DNA of 64,000 nt from Eledone cirrhosa. Lineage: Eukaryota. Shown here in pieces: positions 29,967 through 40,654 of the stretch (the first letter of the stretch is position 1; the number at the start of each line of letters is the position of its first letter). The notes beneath the pieces were generated by a model that was given only the letters and a program-made list of their open reading frames with translations, was not told the DNA's origin and made no database searches. The translations under genes and the position numbers were made by a program. The stretch is taken from assembly GCA_964016885.1 (NCBI GenBank), contig OZ024758.1, forward strand, positions 19,530,001 through 19,594,000, written 5' to 3'.

Positions 29967-30119
29967 AGTTTATCCCGGGTTCAATCGGCGGTAACCACAG
30001 TAAGGAAAGTACTCAATACAAATCAGAGTATAAATATGTAATATAGAAAGGCTTCTACGGGACTAGAACAAATACCAGCCACTCAATTATAATTGTTGTT
30101 CACAGTCCAATTTTCAAAA

Positions 30120-30371
30120 ATATAATATAGACCAGTTTTATAAATAAATATTTACATACCCTTAAATAATGCAACCATTAATTTTGGAAGCACCCGGAGC
30201 TTCCAACAGTAATGGTTGCATTATTTAAGGGTATGTCAATATTTATTAATAAATCTGCTCTATATTATATTTTATCTGATGAAAGCACACCATTATTTAA
30301 CTTGGTGTCCTTGAAATATGTATAATGAAATAAATATGGGTTTATAAATATAGATTCCATTTGTTAATATC

Positions 30372-30375
<4 letters not shown>
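30120..30375 (+). mobile_element. Family F fold-back copy with HHR at 30268-30332
   Basis: CTGATGA 30276-30282, ACACCA/TGGTGT stem II, GAAA 30313-30316. Confidence 0.78.
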
Positions 30376-30444
<69 letters not shown>

Positions 30445-34116: not shown

Positions 34117-34385
34117 CCCAGAGCTTCCAACAGAGATGGTCGCATTCTTTTAAGGGTATGTCAATATTTGTTTATAAAAACTGATACATATTATATTTTT
34201 CTGATGAAAGCGCATCATAATTTGCTTTGGTGTCCTTGAAATATGTATAATGAAATAAATATTGTTTTATAAATATAGTTTCCATTTGTTAATATATTGT
34301 ATTTTTACTCCAAAAATGTGTTGAGTGCTTTATATCAGTTATAAAAATATTTGCTTGTTGTATCCCAACAAATAAATATAATTTC

Positions 34386-35657: not shown

Positions 35658-36946
35658 CTATTTACTGATCTATAACATATTTGACCTCCTTTTCAACCCA
35701 AGATACATATAAAACATATGCGCACATTGATCAACAGTGGGGTGACATTCATCAAATGATATAGCATGGCAATTTACATATAAAGGTTACAGGATAAAAA
35801 TAAAAACAAGAATGAAAATAAAGATAAACATGAAGCGTTGGCAGTCTATGAAGATAAAGCAAGAGGAACGTTTAGAGTAGTCAGTGTATGAAACAATATA
35901 TATATATATATACCAAATTAAGATAAATCAAAGTGAATTTGATGTAAATCAAAATTATGGGTGTCATGCCAGAAGGGCATGCGCCATATCACCCGTAAAA
36001 TAAGCTCCAAGATTCTAATGAATAGGTTCGAGCATTTTATAACAACTAGAAATTGATTAACATATAAATAAAGATATAAAACAATGACAGGGGATAATTT
36101 TTACAAGTGTGTAAGCACACATATCTAGGTGGGTAACTAAATAAAGTTAACTAGAACTTCAAAAATTGATACCTTATAATATAATATGTAAAAATTATCC
36201 CCTGTGATTGTTTCATATGTTTATTTATATGTTAATCAATTTCTGGTTATATATATATATATATATATATATAAATTGAAACAAAATGAAAACGAAATTT
36301 CATTTCTCACTCTTAGTATGGCACTTACTTAAATGTAAGTATGCATGTATACGTACATACATATATGTATACAGACGTACAGTAGCATGCACATATATAT
36401 ATATATATACATATATACATACATATGCATACAGGTACACATACATATATGCACGTATCAGTTTAGCGGCGCTAACGTCGCTTTGTTCGTTTGTAAACAA
36501 ACTGAACAGCCTGAATTTATGCCATACGGTGTTAAGGCAACCACGTCACCTTTTTGTTCAACACTGACACCGTATGGCATAAATTCAGGCTGTTCAGTTT
36601 GTTTACAAACGAACAAAGCGACGTTAGCGCCGCTAAACTGATACGTGCATATATGTATGTGTACCTGTATGCATATGTATGTATATATGTATATATATAT
36701 ATATATGTGCATGCTACTGTACGTCTGTATACATATATGTATGTACGTATACATGCATACTTACATTTAAGTAAGTGCCATACTAAGAGTGAGAAATGAA
36801 ATTTCGTTTTCATTTTGTTTCAATTTATCGTTTTCGGTATGCCTGACCGATTTAACTCACTCAATATGCAAATTAGGCTGCTCAGCCGTTAATTTTCATA
36901 AGGAAAGTATATACTTTCGAACGTTCAACTATCTGGCAGATGGGTA

Positions 36947-36991
36947 AACGGTGCTGATGATAGCTAACAAGCTTGAAACTAGTACATCGTT
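36947..36991 (+). ncRNA. Type I hammerhead, retrozyme unit 1
   Basis: AACGGTG-CTGATGA-T-AGCT(AACA)AGCT-T-GAAA-CTAG-TA-CATCGTT; cleavage after 36984. Confidence 0.85.
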
Positions 36992-37414
36992 CCTGTGTCA
37001 GTGTTGAACAAAAAGGTGACGTGGTTGCCTTAACACCGTATGGCATAAATTCAGGCTGTTCAGTTTGTTTACAAACGAACAAAGCGACGTTAGCGCCGCT
37101 AAACTGATACGTGCATATATGTATGTGTACCTGTATGCATATGTATGTATATATGTATATATATATATATATATGTGCATGCTACTGTACGTCTGTATAC
37201 ATATATGTATGTACGTATACATGCATACTTACATTTAAGTAAGTGCCATACTAAGAGTGAGAAATGAAATTTCGTTTTCATTTTGTTTCAATTTATCGTT
37301 TTCGGTATGCCTGACCGATTTAACTCACTCAATATGCAAATTAGGCTGCTCAGCCGTTAATTTTCATAAGGAAAGTATATACTTTCGAACGTTCAACTAT
37401 CTGGCAGATGGGTA

Positions 37415-37459
37415 AACGGTGCTGATGATAGCTAACAAGCTTGAAACTAGTACATCGTT
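37415..37459 (+). ncRNA. Type I hammerhead, retrozyme unit 2
   Basis: Identical motif; CTGATGA 37422-37428; cleavage after 37452. Confidence 0.85.
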
Positions 37460-37880
37460 CCTGTGTCAGTGTTGAACAAAAAGGTGACGTGGTTGCCTTA
37501 ACACCGTATGGCATAAATTCAGGCTGTTCAGTTTGTTTACAAACGAACAAAGCGACGTTAGCGCCGCTAAACTGATACGTGCATATATGTATGTGTACCT
37601 GTATGCATATGTATGTATATATGTATATATATATATATATGTGCATGCTACTGTACGTCTGTATACATATATGTATGTACGTATACATGCATACTTACAT
37701 TTAAGTAAGTGCCATACTAAGAGTGAGAAATGAAATTTCGTTTTCATTTTGTTTCAATTTATCGTTTTCGGTATGCCTGACCGATTTAACTCACTCAATA
37801 TGCAAATTAGGCTGCTCAGCCGTTAATTTTCATAAGGAAAGTATATACTTTCGAACGTTCAACTATCTGGCAGATGGGTA

Positions 37881-37925
37881 AACGGTGCTGATGATAGCTA
37901 ACAAGCTTGAAACTAGTACATCGTT
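37881..37925 (+). ncRNA. Type I hammerhead, retrozyme unit 3
   Basis: Identical motif; CTGATGA 37888-37894; cleavage after 37918. Confidence 0.85.
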
Positions 37926-38161
37926 CCTGTGTCAGTGTTGAACAAAAAGGTGACGTGGTTGCCTTAACACCGTATGGCATAAATTCAGGCTGTTCAGTTT
38001 GTTTACAAACGAACAAAGCGACGTTAGCGCCGCTAAACTGATACGTGCATATATGTATGTGTACCTGTATGCATATGTATGTATATATGTATATATATAT
38101 ATATATGTGCATGCTACTGTACGTCTGTATACATATATGTATGTACGTATACATGCATACT

Positions 38162-38200
<39 letters not shown>

Positions 38201-38202
<2 letters not shown>

Positions 38203-38642
38203 GATATTAAACAAATGGAAACTATATTTATGAAACCATATTTATTTCATTATACATATTTCGGGGATACCATATTAAAAATATGGCATGCCTTCTTCAG
38301 ATAAAATAAAATATATAAACATTTTATAAATAATTTTGACGTACCATGAATATTGACCGACCGTTATGTAAAAAGCTGGTTTTTACATAACGGTTGGTCA
38401 ATATTTATGGTACGTCAAAATTATTTATAAAATGTTTATATATTGTATTTTATCTGAAGAAGGCATGCCATATTTTTAATAAGGTATCCTCGAAATATGT
38501 ATAATGAAATAAATATGGTTTTATAAATATAGTTTCCATTTGTTTAATATCGTATATCTACTCCAAAACTTGTCGAGTGCTTTATATCAGTTATAAAATA
38601 TTTACTTGTTGTAACCCAACAATTTTATATAAAACTTTTGCA
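38201..38642. mobile_element. Family F subfamily: near-perfect palindrome with an HHR in both arms
   Basis: Axis ~38377; CTGAAGA 38454-38460 with GAAA 38492-38495 (+); TCTTCAG 38294-38300 (-). Confidence 0.8.
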
Positions 38643-38870: not shown

Positions 38871-39115
38871 CATCTTTGTTACATCCTCCTTCTTCTCTAC
38901 TTCAACTTCACATGAATTCCTATAAAAACCTGAACATTCTGGTGCGGTAAACATAATCTCTGATGATATGGGATCGATTGTGCATTGGGTGTCGAATGCT
39001 CTACTAACTATATAATATTATAGATGCAGCGAGATCTAGGCAAATTGATGTCTATTAAAACGTACGTTAGAACCGAATAAATCTCTTTTACTGCATCTTT
39101 CTGTTCTTTTTAATT

Positions 39116-39199
<84 letters not shown>

Positions 39200-39480
39200 G
39201 TATGGGTTTACAGAACATGTATTATAATGTTCGGTTTGTTTGTAAACAAACAGTCCAGATTACGCCGTACAGTGCTCGGCAACCGTCGTCGCCCTTATGT
39301 GCAACACTGACAAAGGAACGATCGTTTGTTAACAAACAAGCCGAACATTATAATAAATGTTCGGTAAACCCATACGTACATATATATATATACATATGTG
39401 TACATGTATGTATATATATACATACGACTATACGTATGTATACATATATGTATATACGTATACATACTTATATATATATA

Positions 39481-39662
39481 TGTTGGGAGCCCCTACATGG
39501 ACACACTAGAAGAGGAAGACCAAGGTTAACATATGTTGATGCCCTAAGGACAGACACTGGTCTTTTGGAGATGCAGGATATGGCAGCGATAATGAGGGAC
39601 AGAGACCGCTGGAGAGAACTCGTCCATGGATCTCGGGAATTTTACCCGCCTTAGATAGATAG
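39481..39662 (+). mobile_element. RTE/RTE-X-like LINE extreme 3' fragment
   Basis: [34 protein letters not shown]; (TAGA)n tail. Confidence 0.8.
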
Positions 39663-39725
39663 ATATATATGTATATATATATATATGTATATATATATAA
39701 TATATATATGTATATATATAATATA

Positions 39726-39756
<31 letters not shown>

Positions 39757-39808
39757 ATATAATATATATATTTATATATATAATATATATATTTATATAT
39801 ATAATATA

Positions 39809-39856
<48 letters not shown>

Positions 39857-39883
39857 ATATATGTATATATGTATATATAATAT

Positions 39884-39973
<90 letters not shown>

Positions 39974-39992
39974 ATATATATATATATATATA

Positions 39993-40063
<71 letters not shown>

Positions 40064-40139
40064 TATAATATATATATGTATATATATATAATACATATAT
40101 ATATATATAATATATATATATTTATATATTCATATATAT

Positions 40140-40230
40140 AATTGTTTCTACGTTTAGGCACAAGGCCAGCAATCACTTAGTGCATTACTGGTACTTTATT
40201 TTATCGACCCCGTAAGAATGAAAGGCAAAT
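40140..40230 (-). mobile_element. SINE family 1, 3' half
   Basis: Matches the consensus. Confidence 0.85.
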
Positions 40231-40291
40231 TTATATATATAATACATACATATATATATATATGTATATATATAATATGTATATATGTATA

Positions 40292-40368
<77 letters not shown>

Positions 40369-40372
40369 AATA

Positions 40373-40408
<36 letters not shown>

Positions 40409-40451
40409 ATATATATGTATAATATATATGTATATATATATATGTATAATA

Positions 40452-40495
<44 letters not shown>

Positions 40496-40570
40496 AGTAT
40501 GTATACATGCATATATTTAAGTGCCACCCCTACTAAGAGTGAGAAATGAAACTTCATTTCATTCCTTTCC

Positions 40571-40654
<84 letters not shown>

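What the first reader, a model, noticed from the sequence alone, without database searches (positions are those of the whole stretch)
39197..40575. Diverged retrozyme sibling whose inversion breakpoint sits at the predicted self-cleavage site
Seen: the inverted arm ends at GGAACGAT (39315-39322). That is the complement of ATCGTTCC, 1 nt from the predicted 5' end ^CATCGTTCC of the cleaved RNA. Its 3' end (..CATTTAT+(TA)n at ~40575) matches the end of the array's inverted arm (36271). Sequence differs but hairpins are kept: CAGTGTT/AGCACTG vs CAGTGTT/AACACCG, GGCGAC/GTTGCC vs GGTGAC/GTTGCC, and a different hairpin CCGAACAT/ATGTTCGG at the GCGACG/CGCCGC position. Inference: reverse transcription ran off a ribozyme-cleaved RNA, giving a genomic fossil of in vivo cleavage. 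The fixed internal 3' end suggests a defined priming point.
Basis: partly seen in the sequence, partly recalled or inferred. Interest (0 to 1): 0.8.

Follow-up and report, generated by a model that had tools for sequence, protein, structure and literature searches.

The report
Retrozyme copy ending beside ribozyme cut
This is an older, two-armed copy of a known kind of small ribozyme-carrying jumping repeat, likely inserted by Penelope-type enzymes, and one arm stops one base from the predicted self-cut site, which may record a cut RNA but is still about as likely to be chance.

Summary
The observation mostly holds. The inverted arm (39197-39322) matches the neighbouring 466-nt hammerhead array at 75% and stops at +2 from the predicted cut. 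Public contigs show it belongs to an abundant subfamily with its own hammerhead (GUU triplet, not GUA), so the predicted cut position is right.

Corrections: the forward arm ends near 39473, at the array's second fixed end (+248). The piece 40482-40576 overlaps it in unit phase and is probably a separate insertion. Hairpins are kept mostly through one-sided changes, and helix II lacks the usual G-C closing pair.

The fixed outer ends fit known internal priming by Penelope-like elements. The 'fossil of cleavage' is unproven. No genome was held, so breakpoints could not be counted. For it: one independent contig also starts at +2 to +4. Against it: other inner ends lie at +11, +49, +73 and about +210; no pile-up was listed for the array family; chance alone gives about 13 such ends per 1,000 insertions. 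Odds about 45%.

The scan noted this family on other DNA many times; one unchecked note found no enrichment at the cut.

The parts
39119..39198 (.). (TA)40, left target microsatellite; hides the outer end of the inverted arm
39197..39322 (-). Inverted arm of the sibling copy, unit phase +2 to about +127; its inner end lies 1 nt short of the predicted 5' end of the cleaved RNA
39323..39323 (.). Junction base C, matching neither arm (G expected for +1); it makes a 10-nt palindrome at 39317-39326
   Evidence: sequence; for the expected base
39324..39473 (+). Forward arm of the sibling copy, from sibling phase +73 to about array phase +248 (the second fixed outer end); differs from the inverted arm at 4 of 55 shared bases
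39482..39655 (+). Unrelated fragment; its frame resembles the C-terminus of an RTE-type LINE protein (motif recalled, no Pfam hit); single copy in the window
40140..40232 (+). Unrelated dispersed SINE-like repeat, 12 other near-full-length copies in the window
40482..40576 (+). Short 5'-truncated piece of the family, phase about +210 to +310, ending at the first fixed outer end; probably a separate insertion
40577..40651 (.). (TA)n at the +310 end
36271..36570 (-). Neighbouring young array: inverted arm, phase +11 to +310, with 4 nt shared with the forward arm at the joint (36567-36570)
36567..38166 (+). Neighbouring young array: forward arm, 3.4 units of 466 nt, from phase +49 to phase +248; the two full units compared are identical apart from one TA step
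36947..36991 (+). Type I hammerhead motif of the array (again at 37415-37459 and 37881-37925): helix I 7 bp, helix II 4 bp with U-U at 10.1/11.1, helix III 1 bp with a palindromic loop; predicted cut after 36984
   Evidence: no Rfam match at gathering score

Best explanation
This is an older, two-armed insertion of a non-coding hammerhead repeat (animal non-LTR retrozyme type), likely written into a (TA)n break by a Penelope-like reverse transcriptase working in trans from both DNA ends, with one arm stopping one base from the predicted ribozyme cut. Shown: the head-to-head layout, TA targets, two fixed outer ends at +248 and +310, an abundant subfamily with a conserved hammerhead core, and the inner ends at +2 and +73. 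Inferred: both DNA ends primed cDNA at internal sites of the RNA, and the two cDNA 3' ends were then joined with one extra base. For the stop at +2 the mechanism I would test first is run-off at the 5' end of a self-cleaved linear RNA with loss of one base during joining. I give that about 0.45, against about 0.5 for an ordinary random truncation.
For: Layout and TA targets match Penelope-like elements (PMC8557442 passages). Outer ends: +310 at 36271 and 40576, +248 at 38166 and about 39473. In run X2, 47 contigs leave the reference at 36809 with a consensus running into TA at the +310 site (agreement 0.7), while 25 and 13 contigs at 36852 and 36853 read through that site, so the end is internal. 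In vitro, a Penelope protein cuts and extends both strands and starts at two internal RNA sites (PMC11167929). The subfamily is real: 982 contigs in X2, 12 in X13, 1 in X3, 3 in X6. Listed variants in the 45-nt hammerhead fall at the end of helix I, its wobble position, N7 and loop II, and none in the core. For run-off: neither sibling arm crosses the cut. In X13, where all 5 partly fitting contigs are shown, the only 5' truncation into unrelated DNA lies at +2 to +4 (chance 0.016-0.024 if uniform over 124 positions). Ribozyme-set 5' junctions with small variation are known for R2 (PMC3774820, abstract).
Against: No autonomous partner was found or could be sought. Uniform breakpoints would give about 13 such ends per 1,000 two-armed insertions, so a scan will flag some. 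No loose end or joint at 36984-36986 was among those listed for the array family (6 X2 places shown, the smallest with 8 contigs, of 367 partly fitting contigs; 127 further loose ends not shown). The array's forward arm crosses three cut sites. The X13 contig is single, has depth 2.9, and may join a TA repeat through a shared AT (18 AT or TA starts in 126 nt). Helix II lacks G10.1-C11.1, and helix III likely needs a dimer. In PMC11167929, hammerhead mutants did not affect insertion in vitro and no RNA reads began at the cut. No listed contig bridges this copy's junction.
Confidence: 0.7

Rival explanations
1. The same two-ended Penelope-type insertion, but the stop at +2 is a random truncation on an uncleaved, multimeric or circular template and was noticed because it is near the cut.
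For: Other inner ends lie at +11, +49, +73 and about +210. About 13 chance cases are expected per 1,000 insertions. No pile-up was listed. Uncleaved RNA was the dominant substrate in vitro (PMC11167929). The arm lacks +1 and carries an unexplained base.
Against: The one unselected 5' truncation seen in X13 also lies at +2 to +4. Two of five window ends lie within +1 to +15 (chance 0.01-0.02, chosen after the fact).
Confidence: 0.5
2. One reading: 39197-40575 is one element, later interrupted by other repeats, copied from a cleaved linear RNA that was primed at +310.
For: The same orientation and order of the pieces; the 21-nt 3' motif is identical in array and sibling; intervening repeats could have landed in the internal TA tract.
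Against: The forward arm already reaches about +248, a fixed end, and the 3' piece restarts at about +210 to +229; the overlapping parts are not alike enough for a target-site duplication.
Confidence: 0.15
3. The inversion arose at the DNA level after insertion (fold-back repair or template switch at a palindrome), or is an assembly error.
For: A 10-nt palindrome sits at the junction; the region is full of TA arrays; no listed contig bridges the junction.
Against: The arms differ at 4 of 55 bases, unlike an assembly chimera. The inverted arm holds +2 to +72, which the forward arm lacks, so it cannot be a fold-back copy of it. The neighbouring array has the same layout. The palindrome needs only one unexplained base.
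Confidence: 0.05

Closest known systems
Animal non-LTR retrozymes (Cervera and de la Pena 2020, PMC7229834, passages; Li, Clavereau and Pollet 2026, 10.64898/2026.07.22.740005, part 1 of 5 and passages)
   Same: Non-coding, low-GC tandem unit with one type I hammerhead per unit; short helix III with a palindromic loop; proposed to move with Penelope-like elements.
   Different: The unit is 466 nt, just above the 150-450 bp range given. This copy is below one unit per arm and carries no hammerhead itself. Helix II closes with U-U. Expression, circles and cleavage are untested here. Two-armed insertions and breakpoints at the cut did not appear in the passages read.
Penelope-like elements: insertion structure (Craig et al. 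2021, PMC8557442, passages) and PAc biochemistry (Frangieh et al. 2024, PMC11167929, parts 1-2 of 4); PLE hammerheads (PMC4209133, parts 1-2 of 4)
   Same: An inverted 5'-truncated copy next to the 5' end, partial tandems, (TA)n targets, two alternative internal 3' ends, a dimer-type hammerhead.
   Different: No RT or GIY-YIG frame. The two ends are 62 nt apart rather than the usual 30-40 bp tail. In PAc, hammerhead cleavage was dispensable in vitro, the opposite of what a run-off peak would imply.
R2 retrotransposons with an HDV-like ribozyme (Eickbush et al. 2013, PMC3774820, abstract only)
   Same: The idea that a ribozyme cut sets the template's 5' end and leaves slightly variable 5' junctions in genomic copies.
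   Different: A different ribozyme class and an autonomous LINE. For R2 cleavage was assayed and many junctions were read; here there are two cases and no assay.

Membership tests
Animal non-LTR retrozyme | Tandem units of a few hundred bases, each with a type I hammerhead | tested here: met
   Array: 3.4 units of 466 nt, 3 of 3 complete motifs. The sibling copy itself is truncated downstream of the motif; its subfamily carries one.
Animal non-LTR retrozyme | Non-coding and below 45-50% GC | tested here: met
   No frame of 120 aa or more in the array; the frames over 39049-40549 are TA-repeat read-through. GC 0.37 for 37001-38000.
Animal non-LTR retrozyme | Expressed as linear and circular monomer RNA that self-cleaves | not testable with these tools
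   No run on record as RNA could be laid; needs northern blot, 5'-OH RACE or in vitro transcription.
Animal non-LTR retrozyme | No LTR, primer-binding site or polypurine tract | not tested
   No LTR-like layout is visible, but no dedicated search was run.
Type I hammerhead ribozyme | Core CUGANGA and GAAA, NUH triplet, helix I closing across the cut | tested here: met
   Listed variants spare the core; the sibling triplet is GUU. The core consensus used in the scan is recalled.
Type I hammerhead ribozyme | G10.1-C11.1 closing pair of helix II (highly conserved in PMC4209133; typical rather than defining) | tested here: not met
   U-U at these positions, with no variant listed. No Rfam match. 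This lowers confidence in activity, so the motif is filed as a variant.
Penelope-type insertion (works like) | Inverted 5'-truncated copy adjacent to the 5' end, in a microsatellite target | tested here: met
   Both two-armed insertions in the window.
Penelope-type insertion (works like) | Two alternative internal 3' ends (tail) | tested here: met
   +248 twice and +310 twice; read-through and TA-joined forms in X2. Small numbers; spacing 62 nt.
Autonomous Penelope-like element | ORF with RT and GIY-YIG endonuclease | tested here: not met
   None in the element. It is therefore not filed as an autonomous element.
Derivative of a specific Penelope-like element | Homology to the terminal repeat of an autonomous partner | not testable with these tools
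   No genome held; collection scans found no true relative.
Ribozyme-defined 5' junction (R2-like) | 5' ends of many genomic copies concentrate at the cut site | tested here: inconclusive
   1 of 5 window ends, plus 1 of 1 truncation in X13; no pile-up listed for the array family.

The most novel reading that the evidence does not exclude
The older GUU subfamily is copied largely from hammerhead-cleaved linear RNA, so its insertions pile up at +2 to +4, while the young array family is copied from circles or uncleaved multimers. The genome would then record in vivo cleavage by an atypical (U-U closed, dimer-type) Penelope-class hammerhead, and show that cleaved RNA is a real retrotransposition template, against the in vitro result for PAc.
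Probability: 0.3. Interest if true: 0.62.

Novelty: new member of a known kind. Interest (0 to 1): 0.33.

Why it matters
What the hammerhead does in Penelope-like elements and animal retrozymes is open: PMC8557442 calls it unclear, and PMC11167929 found it dispensable for insertion in vitro and saw no RNA ends at the cut. A peak of genomic 5' ends at the cut would be in vivo evidence that cleaved linear RNA is copied, and it costs only a breakpoint count on a whole assembly. I found no paper reporting such a count for hammerhead retrozymes or Penelope-like elements (searches; open-access library only; bioRxiv supplements closed and others unread). One copy does not settle it; without the peak this is an ordinary truncated member of a known class.

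Tried and rejected
Whole-genome count of breakpoints: no genome is held. Rfam at gathering score: 0 matches. A 21-nt 3' motif in viral, metagenome and genome collections: 0, 0, 0. A 19-nt hammerhead motif in metagenomes: 3 loci, all chance matches with no similarity beyond about 20 nt. Sequencing runs: no RNA holder listed. Raw Hi-C runs X23 and X24: 0 reads laid, no test; X1: 1 contig under 90% alike. Sequence look-ups in earlier findings and the look-up near this place: nothing. Fold z-scores of the two post-cut stretches are weak (-0.9, -1.0). The TA-free 345 nt of the array unit folds well (z -4.9 plus strand, -3.0 minus strand). The whole-unit z of -7.4 is likely inflated by the TA tract and was not used. 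A formal covariation test was dropped: two lineages only, and alignment A3 puts hairpins 2 and 3 out of register. Fold-back of one cDNA was rejected for the sibling because the inverted arm holds sequence the forward arm lacks. A target-site duplication between 39438-39475 and 40482-40519 was judged unlikely. A restriction-site artefact at the GATC of the junction was considered but could not be tested.

Full report
Setting. The window is AT-rich animal-type DNA full of (TA)n. Earlier scan notes call this genome octopus or octopus-like; I did not test that. No whole genome is held, which limits every count below. Phases are counted from the first base after the predicted cut (+1).

The reference array. 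36567-38166 is 3.4 copies of a 466-nt unit; the two full units compared are identical apart from one TA step. Each of three junction regions holds a type I hammerhead motif with a 7-bp helix I, a 4-bp helix II and a 1-bp helix III with a palindromic loop; the predicted cuts fall after 36984, 37452 and 37918. Rfam gives no match. The motif has U-U where G10.1-C11.1 is usual (PMC4209133 lists that pair as highly conserved), so activity is predicted only. An inverted arm (36271-36570, +11 to +310) joins the forward arm (from +49) through 4 shared bases. The forward arm ends at +248.

The sibling. 39197-39322 on the minus strand matches the unit from +2 at 75%. 39323 is a C that fits neither arm, and the forward arm starts at sibling phase +73. 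The arms differ at 4 of 55 shared bases, so this insertion is older than the array. Laying 39199-39360 on four public runs gave 982, 12, 1 and 3 contigs (X2, X13, X3, X6). The listed loose ends behind 39322 (10, 2 and 1 contigs) have a consensus that continues into a hammerhead with a GUU triplet and C at +1. At five positions the window copy differs from the run majority (39254, 39257, 39258, 39285, 39290). The run may not be the same species, and no listed contig bridges this junction.

Extent of the element. The forward arm aligns to the unit up to about +248 at 39473 (score 68; none of 1068 TA-rich controls reached it). The piece 40482-40576 covers about +210 to +310 (its 5' part scores 39, reached by about 1% of 1076 controls). 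The overlap is not a clean duplication. Between them lie a LINE-like fragment, TA arrays and a SINE-like repeat. I therefore read the 3' piece as a separate short insertion (about 2 to 1). In X2, 47 contigs have a consensus running into TA at the +310 site, while 25 and 13 contigs read through it. This matches the two internal start sites and two-strand extension shown for PAc (PMC11167929) and the tail and inverted copy of Penelope-like elements (PMC8557442).

Hairpins. Hairpin 1 has 5 of 7 pairs unchanged and 2 one-sided changes. Hairpin 2 has 5 of 6 unchanged and 1 one-sided change. Hairpin 3 has an anchored G-C to C-G swap at its outer pair; two further two-sided changes depend on gap placement. 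An intermediate form with a longer loop appears in X2 (8 contigs). This is compatible with selection on RNA structure, but two lineages cannot show covariation.

Is the +2 stop a fossil of cleavage? For: neither sibling arm crosses the cut. In X13 all 5 partly fitting contigs are shown: 2 read through into the hammerhead, 1 is a variant, 1 diverges on the 3' side, and 1 starts at +2 to +4 next to repeat-like DNA (chance about 0.02 if uniform). R2 gives a precedent (PMC3774820, abstract). Against: the five inner ends in the window are +2, +11, +49, +73 and about +210; one within 3 nt of the cut has a chance of 0.03-0.05 per such set, and about 13 are expected per 1,000 insertions. For the array family no end at the cut was among the 6 X2 loose-end places listed (smallest 8 contigs, of 367 partly fitting; 127 further loose ends not shown). 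That weighs only against a strong hot spot, because short contigs represent junctions poorly. The array's forward arm crosses three cuts, so uncleaved or circular templates were used there. The X13 contig is single and shallow, and may join through a shared AT. PAc hammerhead mutants inserted normally in vitro. An earlier scan note (e1-8663914) reports no enrichment at the cut for a copy elsewhere in this genome; I could test that only partly, and it may concern the other subfamily. My estimate, a judgement and not a computed value, is about 0.45 for run-off in this copy and 0.3 for a subfamily-wide peak.

Mechanism. Shown: layout, targets, fixed outer ends, subfamily hammerhead, inner ends. 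Inferred: a Penelope-like protein in trans cuts (TA)n on both strands, both ends prime cDNA at internal RNA sites, and the cDNA ends are joined by short homology or an added base. Untested: transcription, cleavage, circles, and the identity of the helper.

Literature seen. PMC11167929 and PMC4209133: parts 1-2 of 4. The 2026 bioRxiv preprint: part 1 of 5 and passages (1 of 9 Xenopus dimers tested cleaved); its supplements are closed and may bear on insertion structure. PMC8557442, PMC7229834, PMC13282606: passages. PMC3774820: abstract. PMC5625713: listing only. No supplements were read. Searches showed no breakpoint count at a hammerhead cut in this library.

Verdict. A new member of a known kind, noted many times by this scan on other DNA of the same genome. 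The specific claim is open and cheap to test. Interest 0.33; 0.62 if the peak exists.

Noticed in passing
run X13, contig laid at 39213-39252: Its 30 loose letters, compared by eye with the reverse complement of window 39363-39392, show 11 of 13 T read as C, 0 of 9 A changed and 1 G-to-A. That is A-to-G on the hammerhead strand, the pattern of ADAR hyper-editing. One contig at depth 3.2, library not on record, so it may be RNA or a genomic copy of an edited RNA (earlier scan notes describe such copies). The loose end behind 39321 has no T in 30 letters and may be an edited TA repeat.
   Followed up: partly
window 38194-38560: A 96% perfect palindrome with 181-nt arms, flanked by TA, with relatives at about 19684-19833, 20101-20270, 30117-30376 and 34155-34302; MITE-like.
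   Followed up: partly
window 21110-25767, minus strand: Two tandem copies of a LINE frame (966 and 543 aa, RVT_1 hits) separated by a (TTA)n run at 22680-22726; R4/Dong-like by recall, not tested.
   Followed up: partly
window 36044-36105 and 36187-36248: A 62-nt inverted repeat (94%) directly left of the array's TA target; unexplained.
   Followed up: no
window 786-1400, minus strand: C-terminal fragment of another LINE frame with a zf-RVT hit.
   Followed up: no
window 36961 and 36974: The hammerhead closes helix II with U-U instead of G-C, with no variant listed at either place among 5847 contigs (the table may not list all places), suggesting a conserved atypical core context.
   Followed up: partly
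listing: Several runs are listed as holding most of the sampled words, yet X1 (share 1.00) gave only one poor contig when laid; shares for this low-complexity query are unreliable and were not used for host range.
   Followed up: partly
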